Notes: generated by a model not told the origin, from the letters alone. A stretch of 64,000 bases of DNA from the human T2T-CHM13v2.0 reference genome, Homo sapiens (GCF_009914755.1 NC_060931.1), one strand, 5' to 3'. Numbered from the stretch's first letter, positions 1,065 to 37,081 are shown. Numbers and translations: made by a program.

Positions 1065-1213
1065 CTCTGTACCCCTATGAGGTTCTACTCATTTCACTGC
1101 CAGTGGTCAGCTCAACCCAGCTCCTCACTTAATCCCACAGTCACCCAGCCTGCTTTCACTACCCCCAGGCCTCTGAGCAAAAACAACCAAGGAGTAACTT
1201 CCATCAAGAGAAG
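1065..1213 (+). other. Candidate novel upstream exon A (149 bp), in frame with TCAF2 exon 3
   Basis: Acceptor gcttttcccatcAG (1063-64) and consensus donor AAG|GTAAGT (GT 1214-15). 49 stop-free codons plus 2 nt, ATG at 1077, ends in phase 2. No transcript evidence available. Confidence 0.4.
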
Positions 1214-1254
1214 GTAAGTAAATGGAGCTAGGTCTCTTTCGCTTTATCTTTTTT

Positions 1255-1571
1255 CCTGTTTTTGTTTGTTTGTTTTTTATTTTTGTTTTGAGACAGAGTC
1301 TTGCTCTGTCACCCACGCTGGTGTGCAGTGGTACAATCTTGGCTCACTGCAATGTCTGCCTCCCAGATTCAAGCAATTCTCGTGCCTCAGCCTCCTGAGT
1401 AGCTGAGACTACAGGCACACAACACCATGCCCAGCTGATCTTTGTATCTTTAGTAAAAACGGGGTTTAACCATGTTGGCCAAGCTGGTCTCAAACTCCTG
1501 ACTTCATGTGATCCACCCACCACAGCATCCCAAAGTGCTGGGATTACAGGCATGAGCCACCGTGCCTGGCC
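1255..1571 (-). mobile_element. Alu (AluS-like), full length
   Basis: Reverse-complement Alu: ttttgagacagagtcttgctctgtcaccc ... gtgctgggattacaggcatgagccaccgtgcctggcc, with a T-rich tail. Confidence 0.95.
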
Positions 1572-3498
1572 TTTTTTTCCTGTTTTCTATCTGTTCTTCT
1601 GTCCACCAACCTATCTCCCTCCCTGTCAGCCCACCCAACTGCCCACCTGCACATCTGCTGCCCTTCCTTGCTCCAGCTCCATCAGTTTTTGAACTAGCCA
1701 AAACTCTTTGGCCAACTCTGCCCAGATCTTCATAATATTTCACCTAAAACTAGTGCAGGTATCTCAGCTATCCATCAGTTTTTGTCAACTCTTTGACTAA
1801 TATTAATAATATTTCTCTTAAAATCTTTGTTATTAATTGATGCCAGGAAAACAAATCTTCTGCTTTTCTCTGCCTTCTTGTGTCCTTTTGACTCTTTCTG
1901 ACAATGTAAATCCTGACTCCACTGCTGCCCCATTCCGAACCTTCTGTGCATGGTCTACTTCCAAGATCCTTCAGATGGTGCCTCATGATACACAACGTCT
2001 GGCCTTAAAGAGGCAGGGGAGCATGTAATAGAAATGAACTTCTCCTATCATAAAAGCCAAAGAAGAAAGAGATTCAAGGATACAGTGATCAAAGGGGCAA
2101 AATGCATTAGAAAAACCTATAGAGATTAAGTAGCTAGAAGAAGACTTTGATAACTAGGAAATTATTACCAATGATTAGTTCAGAAAGAATAGAAATGGAT
2201 TCCAAGTGCATGTAATTCAGTCAAGAAGAAGGCATAGATAACATGCCTAACGATAAGCACAATGATAGGCAGGAGAAAAATATGAAAGAATCTTTTACAG
2301 AAAAACATTCAGACCTGGGGGTTTTCAAGACAAATTAGACGTAGGCATATTGAAAGGCCAAAAAAGGAGCCAGTGGAAGAGACTGAAGAATCTAGAAGTC
2401 AGAAGGCAACAAAACAGGGCCTTGGAAGTGACAGAAAAGACAGAGGATGAAAATACATATCAAGGTGTTGGTCTTGGACAGGGTGAGCAGACCTCTTTTG
2501 TGAGATTAAAAGGTGTTACTTTATAAGGAAATCAATTTTGAAAAAAGCTAAAGATTACTTTTTGAATGGTTTCAATGTTCTCAGTAAAAATATATTAAAT
2601 TATATGAGATGATACGTGTAAAATACTTGGCACAAGGCTTGACACATAATAAATGTTCACCATGTGGTGGTCCTAGGAGACTTAACAGTAGTGTAGTAGC
2701 ATTGATAAGAACAGCAGTGAACATTTACTGAGTGTTTACTATGTTCCAGGAGCTTTCCTAAGCTATTGTAGTGGTAGTGGTAGAGGGAGAAGGAGCAGGA
2801 GCAGGAGCAGTAATAATAAATAAAAAACATCTGTCTGAGAATAAAGTGAGCAGGATTAGGCTTGAGAAAAGCAGAAGGTTGATTGGCAGAGATATAGAGA
2901 TTTCATCAGCAACTGAGCAGACAATTATTAAGCATGTATAGGAACCCACGTGAACTTTGGCCAGGCACTGGTAATCAAAAAAGTTGCTAAGTGTCTGATC
3001 AGAAGTAAAGCTAATGGAGTGGCTGAAATTATAATAAATGGGCAGTCTTACTATATAAACAAGGGTTTATAGTTAAAAGGTTCAGGAGATATCTTAGAGG
3101 ATTAGTGACAATTGGTCATGGGGCTTAAGGATCTCCTTGCTACTAGCTAAGCAGAGGAATAGAAATAGTAAAGAATGGGAAGCATGGTTAGCATATTATA
3201 ACATAAATGCTGAAGTCACTGAAAATGTACCAGAAGACAGATGGACAGGAAAATTGACAACAAGTTTCCATAAATGAAGTATTACTTCATTTAGGAAACT
3301 GATTATGTGACTGCAAGTAGATCAAAAATATTGTCTGCATCCCTATATTGCCCAGCCTTTATTACCAGAAATCATCAAAGATGGTAAAAGTAATCTTAGA
3401 AATTTATAGACAATGGTAACAAGACTTTCTGATATCAACTCGTGATACCATAGACCTCAAATGAGAAAAATGGATAATAAGAGAAGGAACAATCATTA

Positions 3499-3620
3499 GA
3501 ATGGTATTAGTTATCAATAAGCAATTATGAATTATGAATGGTATTAGTTATCAATAAGCAATAAATGAATTGATAGAATGAATTCATAGAATGAATGAAT
3601 TCATAGAATGAATGAATTGA
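3499..3620. repeat. Short local duplication plus (GAAT)n-rich simple repeat
   Basis: gaatggtattagttatcaataagcaat occurs at 3499 and 3536, followed by gaatgaattcata repeats. Confidence 0.8.
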
Positions 3621-3879
3621 TGTAAGAAAATGTGCAGCACACTAAATGTGAATGGAAATTATATACATGAGACTCACACTGACCCAAATCGTTTGTAGCT
3701 CCTAATAGTTCTATTTTTTAATTTTATTTACTAATTTTGAAGGTTACTGCAAATTTTATTTTTATTTTAGAGGCAAAAAAACTAACTTTACAACAATCAG
3801 CTTATAGTAGAATATTATCAGTGATGCAGGATTGCTCTTTTTATATCCTTATATTTGGTAGTATTATAATAACATTACA

Positions 3880-6860
3880 TGCAGGTACTCACTCTTGTGT
3901 TTTTAACATACTTGGCATTTTGCTACATTTCTTCTTCTAACTTGTTTTACTTATCATCATATTTTTGAGATTTATTAATGTAGATGTACTTAAATGTAGT
4001 TTATTACTTCTAACTACTGCATGGTACTCCACTACTTGCATATTTCACATTTTGATTATCCATTTCTCACTAATGGGCATTCGAGTTATTTCCAACTCTT
4101 TGTTGGTTCAAACTGTGCTGCAGTAAGTAAACTTCTGAGAACTTATCTTTAATATATCTCCAGAAGAGTAACTGAGGGGTGTATACTCAGTAATGAAACT
4201 GCAAAGCCATAGAATATGAATATATGTAATTTCACTAGTATTATTAAATTATTCTCCAGAATAACAACATTAATTTATCCCTCCACTCTCAGTAGAGAAG
4301 AGTTCTTGTTTCTCTACAACCTCACCAACACTTATGCTTTCCAGCATTTTAATTTTTGCCAATGCAATGATTATAAATGGGTTTCTCATTTGTTCCTGCT
4401 GGATTCATTTAATATTTTACTTAGCACCTTTTAAGCACCAAGTGTGATGCTCAAATGTGTTAAACCACCTGGCTGAAGTTGGTAATGTAGCCTCAAAGTC
4501 ACGTTTGGTAAATAGTTCAAAAAGTGTCACATATGTTTATTAGTGAATTTAAGAAAACAAGGGAAAAAAACTTCAATGGGTTGCAATTTCCAGCAAATTG
4601 TAACTAATAACTGTGAAAAATATTTCTGCTCAGAGGATCATGAGAAGGAACGTGGAACCAATGCAAGATAGATGTGTGAGCCAACACACGTGGCTAGCTT
4701 CATGTAAGCCCAGCATACTCTCCAATGTGTCTTCTTAGAGTCACACCTGAACTGACTACTGATTTTCACTTAAATCTGTTGAGAAAAAGGCAATTTTGCT
4801 TTTGTTTCTTAGCAACAGATAGCTTGATCCTGAAAGTCTAATGGTAAGACGTGGTTAAAATGAAGAAGAAAGAGATTGCATGGTAATTTAAATGTTACTC
4901 TCTACCTAAAAGCAATGCTGAGAAGACTCTCTTCAAAGACTTGTCCATTCAAATTCCTCTTGTTAAACAGTTTAATTGCATCCTGTGTCTAATTTTTAAA
5001 TTAATTAGTGATTTTCCTTATATAGCTCTAGAATTTTTGTCATTAATGATGTAAATATCACTTCCTGGACTATTATTTTGACTTATGCTGTCCTGTGTTA
5101 GCCAAACTATTTATTTTTATAGTCAAATCCATCAATTTTTCTTGAAAAGTCCTATGTATTTTATATCTTCTTGGTATATCTGGAGCATTTAACTGATTAT
5201 TTCTCATATAATTAGCCTACTTTCCATAGAACATTTATTTTAAACTTAAAACATTTTCCGCTGATTTACGATGCCATCACCATCATTTACCAAGTTCATG
5301 TAGAGATATCAGTCTGTTTCTGGACTGTCGATCTTGTACTGTATATCTACTTATTCTTATACAAAAATGAATGTATTTTACTAATTGTTGCTCTGCAGTA
5401 TTTGTTAATATCTAGAAGGATTAGTCATCCTTTCTTCTCTCCACCTTAATTCAAAAGTTAAAATCTGTGTTAACTATTTTAGGACCTTTATTTCTCTCTA
5501 TATATTTTAAATCAATATGGAATTTTTCCCATGATTCTTCTTGTAATTATTATTGGAAATGCATTAAATATATTCCAAACTTAGAAAAACCGATGTATTT
5601 ACAAGATAAAGTCTCCCCATTCATGAACATAGTGTATTTCTCCATTTATTTGAACTTTCTTTCTTGTGCTTTACTAGGGCTTTATAATTTTTTTATAAAT
5701 CCTATGCATTAAAAAAATTCATTTCTATATATTTTATGAGTGTGTTGCTTCTTTTTATTATGGTTTCTAATATAATATTGTTGATATAGAGAAAACTTAT
5801 TTACTTTTATATGTTGATCTTATGTTAGAAAATTTTGCTGAACTTTCTTATTGGTGTGACTAGTTTGCCATTAATACTCTTGCATTTTAAATGTAAATGA
5901 TCATATCATCAGCAAATAATTACAATGTATTATTTATAACAATTATTTTCTTTTTCACTGTATTGACTAAAATTGTTAGCACACTGTGCTGACAGGTATC
6001 ACTTATACAAAGCATATATATCTAGTTCCTGACTTGAAAATAAGTGCCTCAGATTTATCCATTAAACATGAAATTTGTTGTGGAATATTTGTACATAGGG
6101 TTTATTAGATTATAAAATTCCTGTGTATTTCTAGCTTTCTAATAATTTTCATCTTTTTTTCATGTATATTGAGATGACTCTGTTTTAGATTTTCTGGAGT
6201 TGAACTATCTTTCTATTCCTGAGAAAATTGTAAAAATGTGTTGCTTTTTAAAATGTTGAACTTGGATAATATTTTTAAATGCTTTTATCTATAAAATTAG
6301 TGTATGCATTTTCTAAACTATGCAAATTTTATAAAATGAGTTGTTAATGTTTTCTTTTTTTCATTTTCTGAAAAAACTTACATAATATTTGGGAATCATG
6401 TGTCTCTTGAAACGTTGGTAAAATCTACCCATAAAATCATTTTACATGGGAGTAGTGAAGAGGGCAGAGATATTATTTTTTCATAGCCATTCAAAGCCAT
6501 TAATGATTGTTATTGTAAGTTTTCTGCTTTTTAGGGGGTCAATTCGGCTTTTATCTTCAGATATGTGCCTATTTTATCCACCAATACTTTTTAATAATAT
6601 TCTTTTATTATTTTTAATCTCTACTAGACCTATTTTAATTTCTACCTTTTCATTTTTTATTCATTTGTATCTTTTCACTTTTTTGCTCATTGAAAATTCC
6701 AGAAATTTATCCACCTTCTTAGAATTTTCAAAAAAAAAAACTTATGGTTTTTGGTAACAATCTCTTTTTTTGTTTCTTTTCTATGCTGTTTATTTCCTAT
6801 GTATTATTTATTTTTAATAATTTAGGTTTACCCTATTGCTTTTTTCCATCATCTATATTT
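3880..6860 (-). mobile_element. Highly decayed ancient L1 (L1M-type) fragments
   Basis: T-rich antisense L1-like tracts (e.g. gatcatatcatcagcaaataat, ccaacacttatgctttccagcatttttaatttttgccaat). Interrupted; boundaries approximate. Confidence 0.6.
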
Positions 6861-6921
6861 CTATAAATTTGTTTTAAAACATTATGCAAACCCTCAAAAG
6901 AAATTAACTTTTCCTCCTTAG

Positions 6922-7068
6922 GTTCATAGATAGTCATCAAATTCGTAATTTAACCAACCTCTTCTCAGCTGGAGTCAGAGAAAAGCAGTATCTTTTCTCT
7001 CTAGAAACAGGCATCCCACCAGTCAATCTGCAGTCTGGTGACAAATGGCTAAGAAATGTGGAGATGAG
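6922..7068 (+). other. Candidate novel upstream exon B (147 bp, symmetric phase 2-2), in frame with TCAF2 exon 3
   Basis: Branch-point-like ttaac, pyrimidine tract ttttcctccttAG (6920-21), donor GAG|GTAAGC (GT 7069-70). 48 stop-free codons FIDSHQIRN...WLRNVEM, with ATG at 7064 just before the donor. Confidence 0.45.
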
Positions 7069-7958
7069 GTAAGCATTTCCAGTCTCTGTTCAAACACAGA
7101 TCCCACAGGACTCTAAGTTTGAGGAAACTCACAGCAAGAGGAGACAGAAGTACCACCAATCAAGAATCCCAGTCCCAAATAGAGAATTCCATTTGTTGAC
7201 AGAACTCTTCAACTAAAGCCAGGCTCCAGCCAAAGAAAACATGAAGAAGAAAACGTCAAACTCTTGGCACTGGTAAACTTTACTTTAGTGCAGGGCTTAT
7301 ACACCCTGAAAATTATGTCCAAGATCCTCCTGGCACTGTTTCCAAAATTCTGAACCATGACTACACTGCTGTTTGCGAATAATATCATCACATTCGTGAC
7401 TCTTAATCGCCACGGAGGCCTGTCCAGCCCGAATCTTTTCTCAGCTGGTTTTCACTTTACCGGGAGACTATGCGCAGAAAAAGAATGAGAAGGAGAAGGA
7501 ACTCTAAGTCCTGAAAGCTCAGTCCCAGGAAAAGTTGAGAGGGACTTCTAGATTGGAAATTGTGTTGATCATGGCTGTACAATATAATAGGTGATATTGG
7601 TGTGGTGCTTTAAGATTAACAAAATGTTTTCATGAATAGATCTCATTTAAAATCTCAAAACAATCTGCCAATTAGACACAGTGGGTATTAATATTCCTAT
7701 ATTTTAGTCATGTGATCTAGGTGAGGTAAATTCTTTCTGAAAGTATACATAGCCAAAAAAAAGCTGCCCAAATGAGTACCATTCAACCCTCCCCATTACC
7801 TTTAGCATAAGAGTTGTGTAGGGACTGACATAATTGTTTGTTATCAATAGGGGAAGTCACTCTACTATATCATAGAATCCTTATCCATGTAAATATTCTA
7901 CAATGCTGTACATGTGCGAAGTGGGAGATAGGCAGAACACAAGCCTGTGGTTTGCTCA

Positions 7959-9092
<1,134 letters not shown>

Positions 9093-9768
9093 CAGAGCAT
9101 GGTATCCTGGAATCTAATTTTAAAACTTTTTCCATTAAGCATTTTTCAAGTTACCTAATAATTATTTTAATCACTATATGGTTTGCAATCTATTGTTAAC
9201 CATAATTTATTTAACCAACCTCCTATTGCTTGACATTTACAGTATATACAAATTGTTTTAAAAAAATTCTTGAAATACAAAGCCTTTTCTTGATTCATTA
9301 CATTTTGACCATTCCTTAAGAAGAAGTGAATACTCTAACCAGATCTAAGTGAAGTTTTAAAAACAGTGTGTGTTTGTATAAATCTTCAAGCGTAGTGTTA
9401 AACAATTTAATTGTGATGTGTTCCTAGGTCAGAACTACCCTACGGAGAGTCCAGATTTGGTGTTTTTACAGCCTTCCTTTGCAGAAAGTTAGATCGAGAA
9501 ATTCATAAGCAGTACTACTTTCTCTGGGCATAATAAACTAGTTTTTCTAACTTGTTTATATGTTTAATTATTTTAAAAGTCAAGAAACTGAAGCCAAAAT
9601 ATTCAACACATAGTTGACTAAATGGGAGGAATTCCTGGAGGTGTTCATTTAGAAAATGTGGATTTTAAGATATGCAAGTAAGGGCACTACCTCTATAGCG
9701 TTTCCTCAAATCTATGACAAATTGATTGTGAGAAATGCCATTATTTTATGTATCACTAAGAAAGACCA

Positions 9769-10098
<330 letters not shown>

Positions 10099-10338
10099 CT
10101 AAACATTGCCAATTAAATGATAATATGCCATCAGTTGTAAAAACAGTGAAAAAATATGCCTTAAACATGATAAAAATAAATGATATTAGCATGCTAAAAT
10201 CCTAATATTAGTAAGAATGTGAAGATTGACATGAACCGTGCAATCTTCTTACCTGCACATAGATTTCTCTACTCAATGAGTTCGATTCAGTGGCTCATTA
10301 ACTGACTGTAGCCTCATTGTTTCTCCTGTCTCTTCCAG

Positions 10339-11330
10339 GTATGGGGAGGATGTCAGGCAGGACCAGCAGCAGCTCCTGGAGGGGATCTCAGAGCTGGACA
10401 TCAGGACAGGGGGAGTCCCCTCACAGCTGCTTGTACATGGAGCCCTGGCCTTCCCTCTGGGGCTGGATGCCTCACTCAACTGCTTCCTGGCGGCTGCTCA
10501 CTATGGCTGGGGCCGGGTGGTCCTGGCTGCCCACGAGTGCCTGCTCTGTGCTCCCAAGATGGGGCCCTTCTTGCTCAATGCGGTGCGCTGGCTGGCCAGA
10601 GGCCAGACAGGCAAAGTTGGGGTGAACACAAATCTAAAAGATCTGCGTCCTCTCCTATCGGAGCATGGCCTGCAATGCAGCCTGGAGCCCCATCTGAACA
10701 GCGACTTGTGTGTCTACTGCTGCAAGGCGTACAGTGACAAGGAGGCTAAGCAGCTGCAGGAGTTTGTGGCTGAGGGTGGGGGGCTGCTGATTGGGGGCCA
10801 GGCCTGGTGGTGGGCCTCCCAGAACCCTGGCCACTGCCCCTTGGCTGGCTTCCCTGGTAACATCATCCTCAACTGCTTTGGCCTTAGCATCCTGCCTCAG
10901 ACTCTCAAAGCAGGCTGCTTCCCCGTTCCCACCCCTGAGATGAGAAGCTACCACTTCCGCAAGGCGCTCTCTCAATTCCAGGCTATACTGAACCACGAGA
11001 ATGGGAACTTGGAAAAGAGCTGTCTGGCAAAGTTGAGAGTTGATGGTGCAGCCTTCCTACAGATTCCTGCGGAGGGGGTCCCTGCTTACATATCCCTGCA
11101 CAGGCTCCTGAGGAAGATGCTACGAGGGTCTGGCCTCCCAGCTGTGAGCCGGGAAAATCCAGTTGCCAGTGACTCCTATGAGGCTGCCGTGCTCTCCCTG
11201 GCCACTGGGCTGGCTCACTCTGGAACTGACTGCTCCCAGCTGGCCCAGGGGCTTGGCACCTGGACCTGCTCCTCCAGTTTGTACCCCTCAAAACACCCCA
11301 TCACCGTGGAGATCAATGGAATCAACCCAG
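10339..11330 (+). CDS. TCAF2: TCAF2 (paralog copy) exon 3, 992 bp
   Basis: AG at 10337-38, GT at 11331. Encodes (R)YGEDVRQDQQQLLEG...ITVEINGINP(G), collinear with the TCAF1 exon ending at 63173. Confidence 0.93.
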
Positions 11331-11443
11331 GTATGAAAACAGGAGAGAGTGCCCAGAACATTAAAGATGTAGGGGAAAGTGGGATTGGCTGACACTACAC
11401 AGGACATTGCAGGTACCTACCCTCAGGAAGATTGACCCCATTC

Positions 11444-11735
11444 TTTTTTTTTTTTGAGACAGAGTCTCACTCTGTCATCCAGGTTGGAATGCAGTAGCGC
11501 GATCTCAGCTCATGCAACCTCCACCTCCTGGGTTTAAGCAATTCTCCTCTCTCAGCCTCCTGTGTTGCTGGGACTACAGGCACACGCCACCATGCCTGGC
11601 TAATTTTTGTATTTTTAGTAGAGAGGGAGTTTCACCATAAAGGTAAGGCTGGTCCGGAACTCCTGACCTCAGGTGATCCACCTGCCTTGGCCTCCCAAAG
11701 TGCTGGGATTACAGTCGTGAGCCACTGGGCCCAGC
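11444..11735 (-). mobile_element. Alu (AluS-like) in intron
   Basis: Poly-T followed by Alu reverse complement; TSD-like tgac(c/t)ccattc on both sides. Confidence 0.95.
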
Positions 11736-11937
11736 TGACTCCATTCTTCATCAGGTACTTTCAAGAAGATGGGGATTGGGACACTGCTTAAGGTTTAGAG
11801 GGGATGAGTCTAAGAAGTATGGATGACTTGAGATACACAGGGGAGAAGCTGTACCACTGGGAGGGGCTGGGAGGCCCCAAGTGGAGATATACTCACATAG
11901 GAAGGAAGAACTGAGCCTTCTCTGTGACTTTTGTCAG

Positions 11938-12035
11938 GCAACAATGATTGCTGGGTGAGTACCGGGCTCTACCTCCTGGAAGGACAAAATGCAGAAGTCT
12001 CACTGTCTGAAGCTGCTGCCTCTGCTGGCCTGAGG
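11938..12035 (+). CDS. TCAF2: TCAF2 exon 4, 98 bp
   Basis: AG/GT boundaries; (G)NNDCWVSTGLYLLEGQ...SAGLR. Same length as the TCAF1 exon at 62787-62884. Confidence 0.93.
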
Positions 12036-12294
12036 GTAAGGTCTGAACACCCACATCTGCCACCTCTCAAAACCGTAGAGCTGTGTCATTCTCATCCACT
12101 GTCTAGTTCCAGCTCATGGCAATGCTGCCAGGAGTACAGAGATGGATTATTCTGCCCATTTTACAGATTTTACAGATGAAGCAGCTAAATTTCAGGGCAT
12201 CTAAGTGAGTGACTGAAGTGCCTAGTGTTATCAAGCAAGAGAAGCTCACTGCAGAATGGACTAGAAGCCAAAACTATGACACTTGAGTTTTTCA

Positions 12295-12338
12295 CCAAAA
12301 AAAAAAACAAAAACAAAAACAAAAGAAAACATTTTATT
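12295..12338 (-). terminator. Candidate minus-strand poly(A) site
   Basis: AATAAA on the minus strand (tttatt 12333-12338), followed on that strand by a long GU/U-rich tract. Lies at the edge of an LTR-like fragment (~12330-12610). Confidence 0.5.
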
Positions 12339-13313
12339 GCAATTTGATTAACAAGGAGACAGGAGCCCAGCTCAAATCTGTCCCATTGTACTTATTTTAA
12401 AGAGTTATTTTAGTAGAAAAGGTGTAGGGAGTGGATTCTGTGATTAGTAGGTGATTGACAGAAAGAAAAGGAAGGGCTGGAAAATCCTCGGGCATGGGCA
12501 GTTACCTCTTCATGCCTCCTCATGGGTCCCATGTGCAAACTCAGAGGGAGTTAGTATGAAACATGCGGTACAAATTTAGGCTGTGTGTCAGCAAGCTCAT
12601 TCTGTACAAACTCTGGTTTTATCTCTTTATCTTGACACCTGAAGGGTGTGCATAATCCCATCACTCCCCAAAATATGCCCTACATGCAGAATTTAAATTC
12701 ATCCTGCCTCCTTGACTCTGAGGGCCACTTCCTACCACAGCTAGGGTCCCTTTTCTGTCAGCATTCTTTCTGGAGCTTGCTTATATCAAACCTAAGAAAA
12801 GCAACTCCAGGACTCCAGACAAAACAGATCTCCACCCATCTGGCGGCCAGAAAGGGAAGCTCTGGGCAAAGAGGGAGAGAGAATCAACCTCACTCACTCT
12901 GGATGGGCCTCCTGTGTGTTCACAGAGGACAGAGCAGAGTCCCCCAGCTCATCCTCAATATCAGCGTCCCCAGACTGGCTTAGGTCCTGCTAGAAGAACC
13001 CAGGATTTTGCCTGGCAGAAAGACACAAGACCTTTGCCAGGATCAGCCTGGTCTCTCACCAATTCATGTCAGGTGAAGACTTATAGTGGAGCTGTTTAAA
13101 TCCTTAGAAAAATGATTTTAAATGCCTTGAAGTCCAAATGACTTTGGAGTGCTAAAATTTCATAAGTTTCCATGCCTAGCACATAGAAAAGGGAAGCTGG
13201 GGTTTCATGGGCATGTTTGTCTAATACCTTCCATCTACACAACCTCACACGCACATCACAAAGCATCACAAAGACTCTAATTTCTCCAACGCTTGGTGGA
13301 ATCACCTGTCCAG

Positions 13314-13527
13314 GTACAGATTGGCTGCCACACCGATGACCTTACCAAGGCCAGGAAGCTATCTCGAGCCCCCGTGGTGACTCACCAATGCTGGATGGAC
13401 AGGACTGAGCGGTCAGTCTCCTGCCTCTGGGGCGGCCTCCTCTACGTCATCGTGCCCAAGGGCAGCCAACTAGGCCCTGTGCCTGTCACTATCAGGGGAG
13501 CTGTGCCTGCCCCATACTACAAGCTGG
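13314..13527 (+). CDS. TCAF2: TCAF2 exon 5, 214 bp
   Basis: AG/GT boundaries; [10 protein letters not shown]...APYYKL(G). Same length as TCAF1 61466-61679. Confidence 0.93.
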
Positions 13528-13866
13528 GTAAGTGGAGTGAACATTTAGGGAGGAGGAAGAGTGGCAGATGCCGTGGGAACTGTGGGGTGGTTGCTAAATG
13601 GGAGAGGGATGAGCTTTGGTGGAGAGAAAGAGGAAGAACTGTTGGGAGGGAACATGGAGGCAGAAGATACGGAATACCCTGTGTCCATGGAGACTTCAGG
13701 GCAGACAAAGAGAAGAGTCAGGAAGCCTTTTCTTCACTTTACAGCCTATAGACACCTGTGATAGTAGTTCATTATTGCAATGTTCTTCCAGAGTTCAAAT
13801 GGTATTTTTCAGCTCAAGGGAAGTTGGAGAAGTGGGTGTGGTAGGTTCCATGATATTTATTCCCAG

Positions 13867-14106
13867 GTAAGACATCGCTGGAGGAGTGGAAGAGGCAGAT
13901 GCAGGAGAACCTGGCTCCCTGGGGAGAGCTGGCCACGGACAACATCATCCTGACAGTGCCAACCACAAACCTTCAGGCCCTGAAGGACCCCGAGCCTGTG
14001 CTCCGCCTCTGGGATGAGATGATGCAGGCTGTGGCCAGGCTGGCGGCTGAGCCCTTCCCTTTCCGCCGTCCTGAGAGGATTGTGGCTGATGTGCAGATCT
14101 CAGCTG
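13867..14106 (+). CDS. TCAF2: TCAF2 exon 6, 240 bp (M60-like domain)
   Basis: AG/GT boundaries; (G)[24 protein letters not shown]...ADVQISA(G). Confidence 0.93.
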
Positions 14107-15015
14107 GTGGGTGCTCCCAGGGAATCCTCCTAGTCAGTGGAAACCATGTATCTATTACTTTGCCTTTTATGAATGTCCAAAATGTGTAAGCATAATTTTA
14201 TTAGTAAAGCAAGGGAAAAAGATATAAAAGACATTGACCATGATGGGGATGAAAGAATGTTTACATGTGAAAAACAAATTATTGACATCTACAAGGTGAG
14301 ATTTCACTGGATGGTAAAACAATCTCAGAAAACGTTGTATTGGGAATTCATAGATGGCAACCAGAGTCATTTCAAGGACAACATAGAAAATCAACTATTT
14401 TCTTCAAACATAAGCCAGAGTTGAAAATGAAAAGAGGAAATACGTAAGGAGGTTTATGGTAAGTACTGAGTGGTTAAAAAGAAAGAGGTACATAGGAAGA
14501 GAAATAAGGAACTCTGGATCCCAAATGGGGAAAGTTCTTTGGACCTCAATTTTCATACCTTCAAATAAGGACAAAAATTATCTCTGTCATAGAGTGTAAA
14601 TTTGGACAAAAGTAGTATACATGGGGAAGAAAGAATGACACTGTTCTAGCCCTCAAGGATCTCAGATCCAGTCAGAGGACATCATATCTCAGACTGACAT
14701 GTAAAGGACACTCACACACACAAAATGAAGGTGTCGAATTACAGCAAGAATGACTATGTAAAGTATAACCAAATTCTCCAGGGCCAGATTGAGGAGGAGG
14801 CCACAACTCAGGTGTGAGAGACTAAGAAGGGGATTAGGTACTATTCAGTTTCTGACCAAGTAGGGGAAAGCTATTTGCTTTCCAATCAGCACAGAGATTC
14901 TGCAATTATTGGGGATAACCAGGATGGTGAAGAAAAGTCCAATAATGGAGAAGAATGAAGGAGATAGTTTGGGCGGACCCTCCTTAATGCTCATCTCTTC
15001 CTTCTGTGTTCCCAG

Positions 15016-15353
15016 GCTGGATGCATTCAGGATACCCCATCATGTGCCACCTGGAGTCTGTGAAGGAGATCATCAATGAGATGGACATGAGGAGCAGGGG
15101 TGAGTGGGGCCCCATCCATGAGCTGGGCAACAACCAACAGTGGCATGGATGGGAGTTCCCCCCACACACTACTGAGGCCACCTGTAACCTTTGGTCAGTC
15201 TACGTGAATGAAACAGTCCTGGGGATCCCCAGGGCTCAGGCCCATGAGGCTCTGAGCCCTCCAGAGCGAGAGAGGAGAATCAAGGCCCACCTGGGAAAGG
15301 GAGCCCCCCTGTGTGACTGGAATGTATGGACAGCCCTGGAAACATATCTACAG
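15016..15353 (+). CDS. TCAF2: TCAF2 exon 7, 338 bp (peptidase M60-like core; motif reads HELGN)
   Basis: AG/GT boundaries; (G)WMHSGYPIM...[12 protein letters not shown]...[10 protein letters not shown]...ETYLQ. Confidence 0.93.
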
Positions 15354-17431
15354 GTACTGAGCAGAAATTCTGGGAGAAGGGGATGACCAGACCCCTCAGT
15401 CATGTAGCGACCTGGATCCCAGTAGCTCTCCACCTCCTTCGCCACTCCACCAGCCTGGACCTCCACCTCCCCTGGAAATGAGAGAGACTGGGCCGCAGGG
15501 TGGTGCTTCTTGGGTTATACCCCTCTAAGGCAGAGAGAATGGCACCTGTCTCACTCACCTTCTGATTTTGCAATGTAAGAGGAAATGAAAAATATTATGA
15601 AAAAAATAGAAATATAGCGTATTATTCAAGGGCAGAAACTCTGTTAGACATTCCTGCAGCTGAATCACAGCTCTTGCCCTCATTGGTTTTGTTCTTGGTC
15701 TCCTAATAAGTGTTCCATAAATGGTCATTGCTTTGTTTAGTTTTGTTTTATTTCACCTGAGTTTTATGAGTCAAATGAGTTATGCTTTTTTATAATAACG
15801 GAGGGTGTCTGCAATGCAGCTGCATTACAATAAGAAGGCATTGTTGGAGACAAATCTGCTAACAAGGGTCTCATCATCCATCACCCCACTTGAAGCCAAA
15901 ATGATTTAAAATGAAGAGCCAGTCAACCCAATAGTAGAACACTGAATTCATAAAGCAAGTCTACTTCCTGTGAAATAAACACAAATCCCTGCCCCCTCCC
16001 CTAGCCCTGCATTGAATGTCGATGTTTTCAAGTTGTCAATGTTGTTCCCCTTTCAGATCTCCTGCAATGTCTCCCACAGCTCTATGGATAGGAGCTGTCT
16101 GGCCCACTTTTCACAGAGGCACACACTATTTTAAAGAATTTAAGCAATCTTTCCAGTAGCCCCCATTTAAGTGAAGGACCTAGAACTTAAAATCAGGACG
16201 TAATGACAAGCCCCAGGCTTTCGCATTGCCATACCCTCTCTTAGTTTTTTGTGCCTTTCACTAATTTTCTGAAGAGTGAATGTGAGACAGTCCCAGTCAA
16301 TGAGGTAACTTTGTATTGCATTCATTTCCATATCCTTAGATAGCCAGTCTGGGGGTATACAGGACCACTGACCACAATGGTAGGTTGCCCCTAAACTGTA
16401 AGTTTAAGCCCTAATTCTGTCCTAGTCTGCTACCTACTCACTGTGGAGCCCCGAATATCAGTTCTCAATAGCTCTAGAGAGACCAAGTCTGAGACTTGGC
16501 CTCAGGATAAACAGGCACCTTCTGACTCCTCTTCCTGCTAGAGGGCTTCTCCCCAGCATCCGTGCCACTGCTGCCTTAGCTCAGGCCTCGTTAGTCTTCC
16601 CTCAGTGTATTCCAGTAGCCTTCTAAGTTGTCCCAGCATCTTGCCTCAATCCTCTATGATCCATCTTCCTTACACTCCTTCCAAAATAATGTTAATACTC
16701 TGTCTATCAAATGCTTACAGTGTTCTCTAGCACATATAGGGTAAAGTCAAAGCTCATTAGCAGGGCATAGGAGGCCCTTCATGACCAGCCTCACCAGCAC
16801 CTCTAGCTACATCTCCTACTGCTCTCACCTCCACATTTACCCTTCGGCATGCCAACCTGCTTATGGTTACGGACACAGCTTGCTGTTTTGGCTTCTGTGC
16901 CTCCCCTTGTTTGCTTCCTGCTGCTGAATCATGCTGGAACATCTTGTCCATTAGCTGTCAAGTCACCTGTCCAAATTCAGCTCTGTTGGCCCTTTCTCTC
17001 CTGGACATCGCCTCCTTGATAAACCAACAGTTTTACCAATGTGTTTATTTACGTGTGTTTCTCCCTTTGGCCAGTGTTCTCTAGAAGGACAAGAGCTCTT
17101 AATGATGTTTGCCTAGCACAGTAGCTGGCGGTGTGTGGGTGTCTAATACATGTTAAACGTTTAATAAATGCTTAATTTATTGATGTATTGATTAATAAGT
17201 GTCAAAGAGCAAGCCAGTGAGAACAGATGAGCAATAATAAGGATACAACAGTGAGACTCTGAGGTAGGCTTGGCTTCGGTGGTGTTATCTGTCCTTGGGC
17301 TTTTATGAGCTACAGTCAGAGAATGCTCATCTATTAAAGGGAGAGTGGGGATGTGAAACCCCAGATCCCCGCTAACTGGAAATTTGTATAATCTTAGTAA
17401 ACAAGGGCCTTCTGCCAAGGGCTTTCCGGAG

Positions 17432-17499
17432 AGCTGCCCCTTATGAAGTATGAGCCACTCTCATTAGCTGCCCCTTATGAAGTATGAGCCACTCTCATT
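17432..17499. repeat. Perfect 34-bp tandem duplication
   Basis: agctgccccttatgaagtatgagccactctcatt x2. Confidence 0.95.
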
Positions 17500-18068
17500 T
17501 TTAGCCCCTCGAGACAGGCTGGATTTTTTTCTTTTTCTGCCCTAAATGCAGTGTTCTACAGAGCAATTTTGTATCATTGCAGATAGCCACAGGTCCAAGA
17601 TGGCTATTAAAAAATAAGGATTATGATGATGTCTGGAAAGTATAGTATTGGAGGTTCGCAGCTTTTAGAATCTCAATAGGCCAGATATGTAGGAAGTGAG
17701 GGTTTCTCATCTCAGTCAGGCCCAAACCTGTCCTGATGCTGAGGAAAACACTTGAGATCTGGGAAGACAATTGTTTAAAGATACTAATAGTGGACATTTA
17801 TTGAGTATTTACCTCTATTCAGACATTAGGTTTCCCCTGAGCACCCCCACTAGATTCAGGGGGTGTTGTTTTGTGGCCAAGAGGAGGAATGAGCCAACAA
17901 GATTGCATTATTGTGCAGGGGCAGAGTGGGGAGATAGGGGCACATACCCAGGATGAAGGTAACGATTGAGGGGAGGTGATCATGTGAATGAAATATATTT
18001 AAGAACGCACATGTCACGTCACTTTTGCAAACTTGACACCTCATTCTGTTCCTTCTTTCCCTTTTCAG

Positions 18069-18323
18069 CTCCAACAGGCCTTCGGGTGGGAGCCATTCAC
18101 CCAGCTCTTTGCTGAGTACCAGACCCTCTCTCACCTCCCCAAAGACAACACTGGCAGGATGAATCTATGGGTGAAGAAGTTCTCTGAAAAAGTGAAGAAG
18201 AATCTGGTTCCCTTCTTTGAGGCCTGGGGCTGGCCTATCCAGAAGGAGGTGGCTGACAGCCTGGCCTCCCTACCAGAGTGGCAGGAAAACCCCATGCAAG
18301 TGTACCTCCGTGCCAGGAAGTAA
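18069..18323 (+). CDS. TCAF2: TCAF2 exon 8 coding part to stop codon
   Basis: AG at 18067-68; [10 protein letters not shown]...VYLRARK* (TAA 18321-23). The 3'UTR runs to the breakpoint at 18767. Confidence 0.93.
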
Positions 18324-18767
18324 AGGATGCCCCACAAGGCGGGAGAGAAAAGGCAGGGTCACGCCATCAACTCCACCATGGGGCTTTGGCCGTGTGCTCA
18401 GTATCTGGAGCCTGAATCCCGCTTCCAAGCCTGACCACTAGATGGTGGCCACGGTCATAAGAAAAAATGGAACCCCTTTCTGTAAAAGGTGCCTTGTGCT
18501 TCTTTTTATTGTTTTTCTGCCTACGCTATTGCTTTCCCCAAGAGACTCACTTCACCTCTTAGTCTTCCAGAGAGGATCTTTCATCCTGCCATCCTGAGGC
18601 TTCTATTTTTGACCAATAGCTCTAAAGACCACGGGTTCCCATAACAACCTGATATCCCTTTCTCATCCCTGCCATCCCTGAATAAGGCTTCTAATTTATT
18701 ATGCTTTAACAAGTTTTCAAATAGCAAGCGAGACACGCTGGAATAGTTGAGAGAGCCCCAAACACTA

Positions 18768-19694
18768 AATAAGCCAAATTTTGGGGTAAAAAAAATAAAA
18801 AACCAAGAAACCAGACATAGAAGCAGAACCTAAAGCATATTTATCAAAACATCTTTGTTTAAAAAAAATGTCTTCAGTGGTCGTCTTGGCTGGTGGGATT
18901 TTAGGTCATTTTAATTATCTTTATAAAACTTTATTCTCTCGAATTTTAAAATTAACATCTATTTCTCTTATAATTAAAAATTAAATGTTATATTTTTTAA
19001 AAAGTATAGTTTATTTATTCCAGTAGTAAAACATTGTTGAAAAATGTAACTCTTGTGCAGATTCTCTTTAATTTCTTTTCAGCATGAAAATGAGGAGATG
19101 GCATGTCTTAGTTTTGTCATCCCATTTTCAGACTCACATGGCAAATGTCATAGAGTTCAGGTATCAGTTCTGCCTGTGGCTTTTTGTTACCTGTTGGAAC
19201 TCAAGATATTTTGGGGAGTTAATGACATTGAGCTACAAGACTTAATAATGAAAAATTCCACTCGAAGTGTTCTTAGCATCTTCTCACAGGCACCTGGCAA
19301 AGCCTCAGCTAATGGTAGTAAAACTTCAATATGGAAAGCTGCAGTTACTTGCAGATATCCTCTCCACAGCTAATTAAAATGACTGCATATATTCATCCAC
19401 ATGCCCACACACACAAACTACAGTAGCATTGGGAATCTAGGAAGTGACTAGAATGGTTGACAAAAGCTGCAAGAACCACATAGAATTAAAGAAAAAAACC
19501 AACAACTTCTTAGCATAAAGGCAGCATAAATAAAGTTAAAGAAGGTGAGGTCACTGAGAGACAAATATTTGTAACAGACTGAACAGATACAAAATTAGAA
19601 TTCAGAATATATGAGTAATTTCTAAGGATAAACAGAAAAGCAAAAAACAGAAAATATTTTTAAAGTATATTCTCAAACAGTTCATGAAAGATGA
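18768..19694 (-). repeat. Inverted repeat, right arm (927 bp)
   Basis: Reverse complement of 8166-9092; contiguous with TCAF2 intron 2 read on the minus strand. Confidence 0.97.
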
Positions 19695-19699
19695 AATCC

Positions 19700-21330
19700 A
19701 AGTGAGATATTCAGCATTTGAAAAGATATAATCACACAAATGCAAATTATATATAATAACATATTTTACCCAGAAAATTAGTAAATGTTTCAAAAGCTGA
19801 CAATATTAAGTGTTGGCAAGAGTGTGGAGAAAACTAATCTTTCATAAAAACTGGAGATCATTTTGGCAGTATCCAATAACATTAAAAAGAGAAACAGCCT
19901 ATAGTAGTATAAATGGAGGCAGTACTAGGAAGTTCATTGCAAATTGTTGGTAATAGTGAAAAAATATGAAGAAGTTAAATGTTTACTAATATGAATGCAA
20001 ATAAAAATTGGCATTTAATCATATGATGGATTACTATTTATCAGTCAATAAGAATAGGTCCACCTATGTTAATTAACAAGGAAAGATGTTCAAAACATAT
20101 TTGTTGAGTAAAACAATTTCAAAAATAGCAGAACTTGGTGATGCAACTTATGGAAGACACAATATAAAGCAAAGTAAACATACGTCAATATATGTCCAAA
20201 ATGTCAGGGAACAACCACAATAAACTGATAAGAGTGTTTTCTTTTGGATTTTGAGATAGAGAGAAAGGACTGACATTGAAGGAGATGATGAAAAGGGCTT
20301 TTGCCTCAATAATTTGTTTCTTCAAATAAGGAGAATGTACAATTATATTTCTCAGGTAATCAAACATTAAATTTAAAATTTAAGATAACTGCTCCAAAAA
20401 TAGAAGTAAAATGTATAATCTACAAATGTGTTGAGGAAATTTAAGAAATGGATAAAGCTTAGTAGCAACCAAGGAAAAATGTAAAAAGAAATAAAGCATA
20501 AAAATAGAAAATAAAATTAAAAGGGGGTAAGAGCAAGAAATACATTTGAATCATCACAGTATATATGAATGCATTGAATTTCCATCTCACAGAAGCTGTC
20601 AGATTGGGTTAAAAACATCTGGATATAAGCTGCTTATAAAAGACACACCTGAAACTAAACATAAAAGCATTGAAAATGACAAAATCAACAAAGTTTTATT
20701 TTAAAAAATACAAAAACAAAAAAGCAGACATATCAGCATTAATAAGGGATGCAAGTGATTTCAAAGAGGAAAAATTAAAAATGAACATTTTCTATGGATT
20801 AAAGTTACACTCTAACAAAAATAAAATTTTTATTAATTTTTATGCCCTGCAAAAACACAATACTGAAAGCAAGAACTGCTACAAAGAAAATAAAAATATG
20901 AATTGACATTACATTTGGAGATGGTAATGTATTCACAGCATCCATTGGAAAAAAAAAAAGGATGGAGATGATTTGATCAGAATGACTTACAAGCTTACTT
21001 ACAGCCAGAAGACAATTGTCCTGCATCCTGAAGACAAGACATTGAGACCCTAGAAGGTTGTGTTCTGCTAACTTGTTGCAAAAATATGAAGTAAAAAGGC
21101 AGACATTCTCCAACATGATACATTAACTAAAAAATCAATGTGCAGAGCACACACACACACATAGATAAGCATCTGAGATGATCCATGTCAAACTTTTAGG
21201 ATTGGCTACCTTGGTCCAGAGGCATGAGACTGGAGCTGGTGGTGTGGTGAGGAGGATGAGTTGCCATTTTCCTCTCTATATTTCTGTATTGGTGTGCATT
21301 TTTTCAAAATAAACTTGAATTCCTTTTGAA
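19700..21330 (+). mobile_element. Decayed ancient L1 fragments
   Basis: A-rich L1-like motifs (gctgacaatattaagtgttggcaagagtgtggagaaa; gattgggttaaaaac...tgcttataaaagacacacct). Confidence 0.55.
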
Positions 21331-21359
21331 ATATTTTCATAAAAAGGCATTTCTTAAAA

Positions 21360-36991: not shown

Positions 36992-37080
36992 CCCTGAGCA
37001 GTGCGGATACCTAGGGACTGACGGACAGGCTCTGCAGTGGCGCCCGGGGGACGTGTCGGAGGCGAGGCGGGGCGGGGCGG
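36992..37080 (-). other. TCAF2: TCAF2 non-coding exon 1 (TSS approximate)
   Basis: Donor GGG|GTGAGT (GT 36991-36990), downstream on the minus strand of the GC boxes and upstream of exon 2. Confidence 0.7.
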
Positions 37081-37081
37081 T

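What the first reader, a model, noticed from the sequence alone, without database searches (positions are those of the whole stretch)
1065..18323. Two stop-free, phase-matched upstream exon candidates could give the orphan TCAF2 3' half a new N-terminus (chimeric gene)
Seen: upstream of the rearrangement junction, in non-TCAF sequence, exon A (1065-1213, donor AAG|GTAAGT) and exon B (6922-7068, donor GAG|GTAAGC) both end in phase 2. Both are open in the frame needed by TCAF2 exon 3. A+B+exons 3-8 from ATG 1077 gives 2421 nt = 806 aa: MRFYSFHCQW...SIKRR-FIDSHQ...NVEMR-YGEDVRQ...RARK. A joined directly to exon 3 gives 757 aa; starting at ATG 7064 (GAG ATG A) gives 713 aa. Inference: the rearrangement placed exons 3-8 under an upstream plus-strand transcription unit, creating a new TCAF2-derived protein. 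Caveats: the exons were picked by eye, ATG 1077 has a weak context, no promoter is visible in the window, and published TCAF2C-type isoforms may already cover this.
Basis: partly seen in the sequence, partly recalled or inferred. Interest (0 to 1): 0.8.

Follow-up and report, generated by a model that had tools for sequence, protein, structure and literature searches.

The report
Orphan TCAF2 half, unproven upstream exons
The two upstream exon candidates are really in the sequence and do fit the reading frame of the stranded back half of a duplicated TCAF2 gene, but nothing shows that they are used, and the stranded half is drifting like a pseudogene.

Summary
The observation reproduces exactly. 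Exon A (1065-1213) and exon B (6922-7068) have AG/GT borders, end in the phase that TCAF2 exon 3 needs, and give 806, 757 or 713 aa. They lie in non-TCAF sequence. TCAF2-derived DNA starts at 8166, after a 122-nt Alu filler.

I found no CpG-island promoter in the 50 kb upstream. The hub's RefSeq table lists no plus-strand gene there except two pseudogenes. Neither peptide has a credible homologue. The phase match has a chance probability of 0.1-0.3% by a strict rule and about 9% by a lenient one.

TCAF2P1 is a 10.6-kb copy of the TCAF2 3' part. Its coding divergence (12/2140) is no lower than its non-coding divergence (38/8461). Seven of the eight amino-acid differences are private to TCAF2P1 and derived, and one removes the invariant second His of HEXXH.

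The chimeric reading frame that fits published Iso-Seq lengths runs the other way. LOC154761 reads a 259-aa frame into the antisense of TCAF2P1.

No RNA data could be examined, so use of A or B stays open.

The parts
1065..1213 (+). Candidate exon A (unannotated). Acceptor 3.6 bits, donor AAG|GTAAGT 8.1 bits. Sits inside the stop-to-stop frame 1041-1217. ATG 1077 is in a weak context (C at -3, A at +4).
   Evidence: Identical in the paralogue at C7:144883949-144884129. Only 2 full-length copies in the genome. No protein or Pfam match.
6922..7068 (+). Candidate exon B (unannotated), 147 nt, keeps the phase. Acceptor 7.9 bits, donor GAG|GTAAGC 6.3 bits. Sits inside the stop-to-stop frame 6908-7072. 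A rival acceptor at 7005 (7.2 bits) would shift the frame relative to A.
   Evidence: One difference from the paralogue (7030 G vs A). 2 copies in the genome. No credible protein match.
8044..8165 (+). 122-nt Alu 3' fragment without a poly-A tail. It fills the junction between the L duplication block (ends at 8043) and TCAF2 intron-2 sequence (starts at 8166).
8166..9095 (+). Left arm of a 930-nt inverted repeat, 99.35% identical to 18765-19694. It is a piece of TCAF2 intron 2 that is present in both halves of the broken copy.
10339..11330 (+). TCAF2P1 exon 3 (992 nt), acceptor 8.0 bits. The first in-frame ATG is at 10559, behind five out-of-frame ATGs.
11938..12035 (+). TCAF2P1 exon 4
13314..13527 (+). 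TCAF2P1 exon 5
13867..14106 (+). TCAF2P1 exon 6
15016..15353 (+). TCAF2P1 exon 7, the core of the Peptidase_M60 domain. It carries 4 of the 7 private replacements, including HELGH to HELGN. RefSeq NR_110549.1 reads on to 15739 as an alternative 3' end.
18069..18326 (+). TCAF2P1 exon 8 with its stop codon at 18324-18326. It is not part of the RefSeq pseudogene model.
18765..19694 (-). Right arm of the inverted repeat. It ends the inverted 99.90% copy of the TCAF2 5' region (18765-39525 as far as I fetched).
21209..21340 (-). Alternative first coding exon of TCAF2 isoform B (44 aa, 100% identical). In this copy it is on the strand opposite to exons 3-8.
33594..34230 (-). TCAF2 exon 2 copy (start codon at 34216). 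It is exon 2 of LOC154761.
36992..37069 (-). TCAF2 exon 1 copy. It lies inside the only CpG-island-like stretch (36801-38000) found in window coordinates -50000 to 40000.
12318..14129 (-). Terminal exon of LOC154761, antisense to TCAF2P1 exons 5-6. It supplies the last 52 aa of a 259-aa reading frame.
   Evidence: hub annotation

Best explanation
TCAF2P1 is the stranded 3' part (end of intron 2, exons 3-8, and 435 nt of flank; 8166-18763) of a human-lineage duplicate of TCAF2.

It lies head-to-head with an inverted copy of the TCAF2 promoter, exons 1-2 and most of intron 2 (LOC154761). A 930-nt piece of intron 2 is present at both ends of the stranded part. On its upstream side, a 122-nt Alu fragment joins it to an unrelated duplication block, which I call L.

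Cut off from both known TCAF2 start exons, it behaves as a transcribed pseudogene. Its frame is still open only because it is young, and its protein sequence is changing at the neutral rate or faster.

Exons A and B are good-looking cryptic exons in block L. Their openness in the phase of exon 3 arose before they came to lie upstream of exon 3, because the paralogous copy of L has the same two exons. The match is therefore most simply coincidence. It cannot be the result of selection for a chimeric protein.

Shown here: the anatomy, the frames, the divergence counts, and the lack of a CpG island or a homologue. Inferred: that A and B are not used to make a stable protein.
For: 1. Anatomy.
- Window 8163-18763 matches the TCAF2 gene at C7:144997835-145008460 in direct orientation at 99.275%.
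- Window 18765-39525 matches C7:144998767-144978001 inverted at 99.899%.
- The two blocks overlap by about 930 nt of intron 2.
- Only 2 TCAF2-type and 2 TCAF1-type copies of exon 3 exist in the genome.

2. No constraint.
- There are 50 substitutions and 3 indel events over 10.6 kb. Coding divergence is 12 of 2140, non-coding 38 of 8461. The coding changes are 8 non-synonymous and 4 synonymous.
- Against the human TCAF2 protein P0013 there are 7 differences in 711 residues. At all 7, TCAF2 keeps the state shared by chimpanzee, bonobo, gorilla, orang-utan, gibbon and macaque, so 7 are derived in TCAF2P1 and 0 in TCAF2.
- H553N hits a position that is H in 115 of 115 other sequences. H579N hits one that is H in 108 of 110, and E630Q one that is E in 111 of 113.
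- Five human-derived states are shared with TCAF2, so the copy arose on the human lineage.
- With 3 indel events in 8.46 kb, 2 of them in simple repeats, an unbroken frame is what neutrality predicts.

3. No sign of an upstream transcription unit.
- None of the 200-nt windows in 1-10338 is CpG-island-like.
- The only such stretch in -50000 to 40000 is the LOC154761 promoter.
- The hub's RefSeq table has no plus-strand gene upstream other than two pseudogenes.

4. A and B have no relatives.
- Among about 5.8 billion proteins, 3 candidates each shared words and none scored E <= 10.
- There are no Pfam hits at E <= 1.
- phmmer with B against 1.84 billion representatives gave 3 hits. All are internally repetitive proteins; two match over 13-20 residues and the third lists no matched stretch. 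I judged them spurious.

5. A and B are older than their position next to exon 3.
- Block L has an inverted paralogue at 99.54%.
- Exon A is identical there and exon B differs at 1 base.
- No TCAF exon follows in the 40 kb fetched.

6. Rival splice choices would break the frame: pseudo-exon 9485-9677 (acceptor 6.2, donor 4.1 bits, closed in all phases) and the acceptor at 7005.
Against: - A and B are the only two strong plus-strand donors in the 10.3 kb upstream, and both are open only in the needed phase.
- Under the strict rule this is rare: 2 of 1500 shuffles, or (4/78) squared.
- Their splice-site scores equal or exceed those of real TCAF exons.
- The RefSeq transcript NR_110549.1 starts exactly at the exon-3 acceptor. 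A promoter inside the exon or intron would not give that, so an unannotated upstream exon probably exists.
- Truncated TCAF1A paralogues are expressed with reading frames of 736-738 aa (Hsieh 2021, supplementary file 10). Stranded TCAF halves can therefore gain working 5' ends.
- No RNA-seq, Iso-Seq, CAGE or proteomic data could be examined.
- Lack of a CpG island does not exclude a tissue-restricted promoter.
- The substitution counts are small.
Confidence: 0.7

Rival explanations
1. Chimeric transcript. Exon A and/or exon B are real exons of an unannotated plus-strand RNA that starts further upstream in block L and splices into the strong exon-3 acceptor. This gives a TCAF2P1 RNA with a new 5' end. 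Some of these RNAs may be translated into the 757/806-aa forms.
For: - Consensus splice sites, and the only two strong donors upstream.
- The exon-3 acceptor scores 8.0 bits.
- The annotated transcript begins exactly at that acceptor (hub annotation).
- The phase match is rare under the strict rule.
- TCAF1A gives a precedent.
Against: - No promoter-like CpG island within 50 kb, and no annotated plus-strand gene upstream.
- Exon A has an acceptor, so at least one further unknown exon would be needed.
- The competitor pseudo-exon and the alternative acceptor would break the frame.
- ATG 1077 is in a weak context.
- No constraint on the coding part.
- Under the lenient rule the coincidence has a probability of about 9%.
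Confidence: 0.18
2. N-truncated protein without any new exon. TCAF2P1 RNA is translated from the first in-frame ATG inside exon 3 (10559, context A at -3 and G at +4). That gives 564 aa with the RefSeq 3' end, or 638 aa with exon 8.
For: - One search gives these two frames.
- The lengths equal Hsieh's TCAF2A isoforms 4 and 5 ('565' and '639' aa), if their counts include the stop. Compare '920' with the 919-aa orthologues, and '756' with the 755-aa chimpanzee form.
Against: - Five out-of-frame ATGs precede 10559 in exon 3.
- Hsieh assigned those isoforms to TCAF2A, not to this copy.
- No constraint is visible.
Confidence: 0.08
3. The plus strand of TCAF2P1 is hardly transcribed at all. The RefSeq model would then reflect TCAF2 transcripts (same exon structure, about 99.4% identical in the exons) assigned to the wrong paralogue.
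For: - The model has the same structure and reading-frame length as a TCAF2A isoform.
- The two copies differ at only 12 of 2140 coding bases.
- The model starts at the splice acceptor, as a clipped alignment of a TCAF2 cDNA would.
Against: - RefSeq labels it a transcribed pseudogene (hub annotation).
- It appears as a differentially expressed gene in one RNA-seq paper (PMC11673482, passages seen), although short reads could be misassigned there too.
Confidence: 0.1

Closest known systems
TCAF2 isoform B (human, 815 aa, P0013) and the 755-aa form (chimpanzee isoform X3, P0018; probably Hsieh 2021 TCAF2A 'isoform 7, 756 aa')
   Same: An alternative 44-aa first coding exon, ending in the same phase, is spliced straight to exon 3. 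The exon-2 domain is dropped and exons 3-8 are kept.
   Different: That exon lies in TCAF2 intron 2 and is present in chimpanzee, bonobo, gorilla, orang-utan and gibbon proteins. In this copy it sits at 21340-21209 on the opposite strand, so TCAF2P1 cannot use it. Exons A and B are unrelated to it and have no homologues.
TCAF1A1/TCAF1A2 (Hsieh et al. 2021, PMC8387397)
   Same: These are human-specific stranded 3' copies (the last seven exons of TCAF1) that still give reading frames of 736-738 aa. Iso-Seq reads support them (section 8 and supplementary file 10).
   Different: Their expression is documented, and their proteins are reported as 100% identical among paralogues. I found no such data for TCAF2P1, which has 7 private replacements. 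The names TCAF2P1, TCAF2B and LOC154761 have 0 occurrences in the 11 supplementary files. TCAF2B has 0 in the main text; the main text was not searched for the other two names.
TCAF2C2 / LOC154761
   Same: It is a product of the same rearrangement. It is the other half of the broken copy, and it has a chimeric frame of 207 aa of TCAF2 plus 52 new aa.
   Different: It runs on the minus strand from the CpG-island promoter and reads the antisense of TCAF2P1. Its 259 aa match the most abundant published TCAF2C2 form ('260 aa', 956-957 esophagus reads). Equating LOC154761 with TCAF2C2 is my inference from position and length.
Transcribed unprocessed pseudogenes of segmental duplications
   Same: Intron-containing partial copy, no promoter or start exons of its own, neutral divergence, annotated non-coding RNA.
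   Different: The frame is still fully open over 711 codons, and frame-compatible cryptic exons lie upstream.

Membership tests
TCAF family (M60-like_N + Peptidase_M60 proteins that bind TRPM8) | M60-like_N and Peptidase_M60 domains | tested here: met
   The exon-7 translation hits PF13402 at E 1.9e-33. The stand-in P0018 (alternative exon plus exons 3-8) has PF17291 at 360-468 and PF13402 at 469-725. Exon 3 is 99% identical to human TCAF2.
TCAF family (M60-like_N + Peptidase_M60 proteins that bind TRPM8) | Residues conserved in TCAF2 orthologues, including the second His of HELGH | tested here: not met
   TCAF2P1 reads HELGN. H is found in 115 of 115 other aligned sequences. TCAF1 in this window reads HELGR, so the loss need not abolish TRPM8 binding.
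TCAF family (M60-like_N + Peptidase_M60 proteins that bind TRPM8) | N-terminal exon-2 domain and start codon on the same transcription unit | tested here: not met
   Exon 2 (34216-33594) and the alternative start exon (21340-21209) are on the minus strand, while exons 3-8 are on the plus strand.
Chimeric gene born from a segmental duplication | A parental gene fragment placed next to non-parental sequence that offers frame-compatible exons | tested here: met
   Junction at 8043-8166. A and B are in phase and give 806/757/713 aa.
Chimeric gene born from a segmental duplication | Transcripts that join the new exons to the parental exons | not testable with these tools
   No RNA data are available here. 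Literature searches for TCAF2P1 (2 papers), TCAF2B (1 paper; from its title it concerns a different gene), LOC154761 (11 papers), and TCAF2C or TCAF1P1 (10 papers, 9 listed) listed no title or abstract on such junctions. Only two of these papers were opened: PMC11673482 (passages) and PMC8387397.
Chimeric gene born from a segmental duplication | A promoter upstream of the new exons | tested here: inconclusive
   No CpG-island-like stretch in window coordinates -50000 to 10338. Promoters without CpG islands cannot be excluded.
Chimeric gene born from a segmental duplication | Purifying selection on the retained coding part | tested here: not met
   Coding 12/2140 versus non-coding 38/8461. 8 non-synonymous to 4 synonymous changes. 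7 derived replacements in TCAF2P1 versus 0 in TCAF2.
Transcribed unprocessed pseudogene | Partial intron-containing copy that lacks the parental promoter and start, and diverges neutrally | tested here: met
   That it is transcribed rests on the RefSeq label in the hub annotation, which I did not test.

The most novel reading that the evidence does not exclude
In some tissue a plus-strand RNA from block L splices exon A and/or exon B onto TCAF2P1 exon 3. It would make a human-specific 757- or 806-aa TCAF2-like protein. That protein would lack the first N-terminal domain, carry a new N-terminus, and have an altered M60 motif (HELGN). It would compete with TCAF1/TCAF2 at TRPM8, in the way that truncated SRGAP2C antagonises SRGAP2A (a comparison made in the discussion of PMC8387397).

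A second reading is also not excluded. The 99.35% inverted repeat (8166-9095 / 18765-19694) could flip the 9.7 kb between its arms by recombination. By geometry this would rebuild a complete TCAF2 gene on the minus strand, next to TCAF1.
Probability: 0.05. Interest if true: 0.55.

Novelty: already known. Interest (0 to 1): 0.25.

Why it matters
TCAF1 and TCAF2 regulate the cold sensor TRPM8 in opposite directions, and their human-specific duplications have been linked to cold or dietary adaptation (PMC8387397 abstract; PMC4284226 abstract and passages). A translated chimeric TCAF2 fragment would be another human-specific modulator at this locus.

The evidence here says that this stranded half is most likely a decaying by-product. 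The rearrangement product whose predicted length fits published Iso-Seq data is the short 5'-half frame on the other strand.

The practical value is a precise map of the junctions and a list of copy-specific bases. With these, the question can be settled from existing long-read RNA data.

Tried and rejected
- Repeat origin of A and B. There is no second copy in the window. The genome holds only the window copy and its paralogue, plus one 40-nt match for the A query. No repeat library was available, so an ancient repeat origin is neither shown nor excluded.
- Protein homology of A and B: nothing credible.
- A whole-genome search with the full 10.6-kb TCAF2P1 block was swamped by Alu matches and did not list the TCAF2 copy. 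I solved this by fetching the TCAF2 locus by coordinates and by exon-only queries.
- Simple in-place inversion of the 3' half. I proposed this after and rejected it. The sequence downstream of the real TCAF2 3' flank (C7:145008461-145018000) gave no match of 400 nt or more to block L, so L is not the natural downstream flank. The copy is better described as three duplication blocks of different identity (99.54%, 99.28%, 99.90%) joined together, one of them inverted.
- Gene conversion from TCAF1 as the source of the private replacements. At five of the seven changed positions (57, 553, 557, 579, 630), read by eye from the translations, the TCAF1 residues differ from the TCAF2P1 residues. Positions 103 and 544 were not checked.
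- An intact reading frame as evidence of selection. Rejected, because only 3 indel events occur in 8.46 kb of non-coding sequence.
- Structure and complex predictions were not run. They would not bear on whether the exons are used.

Full report
**Observation.**
- Exon A (1065-1213) follows ...cccatcag and ends AAG|gtaagt. Exon B (6922-7068) follows ...ctccttag and ends GAG|gtaagc. Exon 3 of TCAF2P1 starts after ...cttccag at 10339.
- Each candidate is open in one frame only, the one that leaves two bases for the first base of exon 3.
- Joined by coordinates in a script, A+B+exons 3-8 gives 806 aa from ATG 1077, A+3-8 gives 757 aa, and ATG 7064 gives 713 aa. Exons 3-8 give 711 open codons ending at 18323.

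**How unusual is it?** I scored splice sites with a simple weight matrix. Its frequencies are recalled, so the scores are rough.
- A scores donor 8.1 / acceptor 3.6 bits, and B scores 6.3 / 7.9. This equals or exceeds the real TCAF exons in the window.
- On the plus strand of 1-10338 there are 9 donors of at least 4 bits and only 2 of at least 6 bits. Those 2 are A and B. All 3 pseudo-exons built on them are open only in the needed phase.
- The stop-to-stop frames that hold them (1041-1217, 58 aa; 6908-7072, 54 aa) each end at the TAA inside the donor. The region has about 45 plus-strand frames of this size.
- Among the 19 other strong donors in the window, 6 of 57 donor-phase combinations have at least 49 open codons upstream.
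- In 1500 locally composition-matched Markov shuffles, two or more complete phase-matched pseudo-exons appeared 2 times with donors of at least 6 bits, and 9 times with donors of at least 4 bits. One or more appeared 38 and 166 times.
- In 77.7 kb (both strands) of neighbouring non-exonic DNA the rate per donor and phase was 4 of 78 (donor at least 6) and 24 of 423 (donor at least 4).
- My arithmetic from these rates gives about 0.3% for both strong donors, and about 9% for at least 2 of 9 weaker donors.
- The coincidence is real but depends on the threshold, and the exons were chosen by eye.

**Anatomy of the locus.**
- A 930-nt inverted repeat (8166-9095 against 19694-18765, 99.35%) brackets exons 3-8.
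- The window's own genome is held, so I could place the pieces:
  - Window 8163-18763 is a direct copy of the TCAF2 gene's 3' part (C7:144997835-145008460, 99.275%).
  - Window 18765-39525 is an inverted copy of the TCAF2 5' region (C7:144998767-144978001, 99.899%; cut by what I fetched).
  - The two copies overlap in TCAF2 by about 930 nt of intron 2. That overlap is the inverted repeat.
- The minus-strand 5' half carries exon 1 (36992-37069), exon 2 (start codon at 34216), and the alternative first coding exon of isoform B (21340-21209, 100% identical).
- The inner ends of the two TCAF2 5' copies lie about 100 kb apart. This fits the inverted DupC pair and the roughly 100-kb inversion of Hsieh et al. 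2021 (PMC8387397, sections 7-8 and supplementary file 8). That assignment is my inference.
- Upstream, block L (at least window -11810 to 8043) has an inverted paralogue at C7:144877150-144897000, 99.54% identical.
- Between L and the intron-2 sequence sits a 122-nt Alu 3' fragment without a poly-A tail (8044-8165).
- The genome holds only four copies of exon 3: TCAF1, one TCAF1A-type copy, TCAF2 and TCAF2P1.

**Are A and B older than the junction?** Yes. Exon A with its flanks is identical in the paralogue of L, and exon B differs at one base (7030 G versus A). That difference falls at a third codon position and is silent by my reading. The paralogue is not followed by TCAF exons in the 40 kb I fetched: the 4 tblastn hits there all match the Alu-derived part of isoform B. 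The open frames of A and B therefore existed before, or independently of, their position next to exon 3. Their phase match cannot have been shaped by selection for a chimeric protein. It is either luck or the trace of some older use.

**Do A and B have an older use?** I found no trace of one.
- Each peptide shared words with only 3 candidates among about 5.8 billion proteins, and none scored E <= 10.
- Neither peptide hit Pfam at E <= 1.
- phmmer with peptide B against 1.84 billion representatives gave 3 hits. All are internally repetitive proteins; two match over 13-20 residues and the third lists no matched stretch. I regard them as spurious.
- Neither exon region is repeated elsewhere in the genome, apart from one 40-nt match.

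**Is there an upstream transcription unit?**
- None of the 200-nt windows in 1-10338 is CpG-island-like, and the region holds only 58 CpGs.
- In window coordinates -50000 to 40000 the only such stretch is 36801-38000, the promoter of the minus-strand 5' half.
- The hub's RefSeq table lists only two pseudogenes on the plus strand in the 45 kb before the window.
- Exon A has an acceptor, so as an internal exon it would need a further, unknown exon.
- Rival splice choices would break the frame: pseudo-exon 9485-9677 (acceptor 6.2, donor 4.1 bits, closed in all phases), and an acceptor at 7005 inside B (7.2 bits) that gives a 64-nt version out of phase with A.
This points to an unannotated upstream exon, or to a clipped alignment of a TCAF2 cDNA.

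**Is the coding part under selection?**
- Aligned to the TCAF2 gene of the same genome, the 10.6-kb block has 50 substitutions and 3 indel events.
- Coding exons carry 12 substitutions in 2140 nt (0.56%), and non-coding sequence 38 in 8461 nt (0.45%). Eight coding changes are non-synonymous and four are synonymous.
- One of the eight is the known R479Q variant of TCAF2 itself (PMC8387397, section 8).
- Against the human TCAF2 protein P0013 there are 7 differences in 711 residues. At all 7, TCAF2 keeps the state shared by six other primates, so all 7 arose in TCAF2P1 and none in TCAF2.
- The seven changes are R57W, C103R, V544E, H553N, R557W, H579N and E630Q. H553 is the second His of HELGH and is H in 115 of 115 other sequences. 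H579 is H in 108 of 110, and E630 is E in 111 of 113.
- Five human-derived residues are shared with TCAF2, so the copy arose on the human lineage.
- With so few indels, and 2 of the 3 in simple repeats, an unbroken frame is expected by chance.
- This is the pattern of a young pseudogene. The counts are small, and faster-than-neutral change cannot be excluded.

**What is known.**
- The proposed architecture has a natural model. TCAF2 isoform B (815 aa) and the 755-aa ape forms start with a 44-aa alternative exon that ends in the same phase and joins exon 3. In this copy that exon is on the other strand.
- Hsieh et al. report expressed truncated TCAF1A paralogues (736/738 aa) and ten TCAF2A isoforms (supplementary file 10). 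None of TCAF2P1, TCAF2B or LOC154761 occurs in the 11 supplementary text files, and TCAF2B does not occur in the main text. Their supplementary figures could not be read.
- A transcript with the RefSeq structure has its longest frame, 564 aa, from ATG 10559, behind five out-of-frame ATGs. With exon 8 the frame is 638 aa. These equal Hsieh's TCAF2A '565' and '639' aa if their counts include the stop.
- The RefSeq model of LOC154761 gives a 259-aa frame: 207 aa of the TCAF2 N-terminus plus 52 aa read from the antisense of TCAF2P1. Its length equals their most abundant TCAF2C2 form ('260 aa', 956-957 esophagus reads).
- So the chimeric frame at this junction that fits published RNA lengths is the 5' half reading into the inverted 3' half, not the reverse.
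- Literature searches for TCAF2P1, TCAF2B, LOC154761, and TCAF2C or TCAF1P1 listed no title or abstract describing a chimeric TCAF2P1 transcript. In most cases I saw listings and abstracts only. I saw passages of PMC11673482, where TCAF2P1 is merely a differentially expressed gene.

**Verdict.**
- The structural premise is confirmed and now mapped to the base.
- The claim of a new protein is unsupported, and the evolutionary pattern weighs against it.
- I put about 0.7 on 'transcribed, neutrally drifting orphan fragment; A and B are cryptic exons that match the phase by coincidence'. I put about 0.18 on 'A and/or B are used in some RNA', and about 0.05 on a stable chimeric protein.
- The question can be settled from existing long-read RNA data, using the copy-specific bases listed in the next steps.

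Noticed in passing
window 12318-14129, 33594-34230, 36992-37069 (minus strand): The RefSeq pseudogene model LOC154761 carries a 259-aa reading frame: 207 aa of the TCAF2 N-terminus plus 52 aa read from the antisense of TCAF2P1. Its length matches the most abundant published TCAF2C2 isoform ('260 aa'). LOC154761 is therefore probably the TCAF2C2 of Hsieh et al. 2021.
   Followed up: partly
window 8166-9095 and 18765-19694: These 930-nt inverted arms are 99.35% identical and lie 9.7 kb apart. By geometry, recombination between them would flip exons 3-8 and rebuild a complete TCAF2 gene on the minus strand next to TCAF1. I could not check whether any human haplotype carries that orientation.
   Followed up: no
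window 8044-8165: A 122-nt Alu 3' fragment without a poly-A tail fills the junction between duplication block L and TCAF2 intron-2 sequence. It is absent from the paralogue of L at this point, and no Alu adjoins the other arm of the inverted repeat.
   Followed up: partly
window -11810 to 8043 versus G000:C7:144877150-144897000 (L005, L006): Block L, which holds exons A and B, is itself a 99.54% inverted segmental duplication about 203 kb away. Reads from A or B alone therefore cannot be assigned to one copy. Only position 7030 distinguishes exon B between the copies.
   Followed up: yes
window 15103-15207 (exon 7): Four of the seven private amino-acid replacements (V544E, H553N, R557W, H579N) fall within 36 codons around the M60 zinc-binding motif, together with one synonymous change at codon 591. 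This could be a mutational cluster, a patch that escaped gene conversion, or chance.
   Followed up: no
window 10339-10559: Exon 3 holds five ATGs in another frame (10341, 10350, 10437, 10467, 10503; frames of up to 94 aa) before the first in-frame ATG at 10559. Any transcript that starts at or near exon 3 would be a poor template for the TCAF frame.
   Followed up: yes
window 11434-11642: This is the Alu-derived alternative exon that human TCAF2 isoform B inserts between exons 3 and 4. It is present in this copy too, with a 7.2-bit donor at 11642.
   Followed up: partly
G000:C7:144953432-144954394: This is the only other TCAF1-type copy of exon 3 in the genome (100% identical over 828 nt, plus strand), presumably a TCAF1A paralogue. 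It lies about 25 kb upstream of the TCAF2 promoter copy.
   Followed up: no
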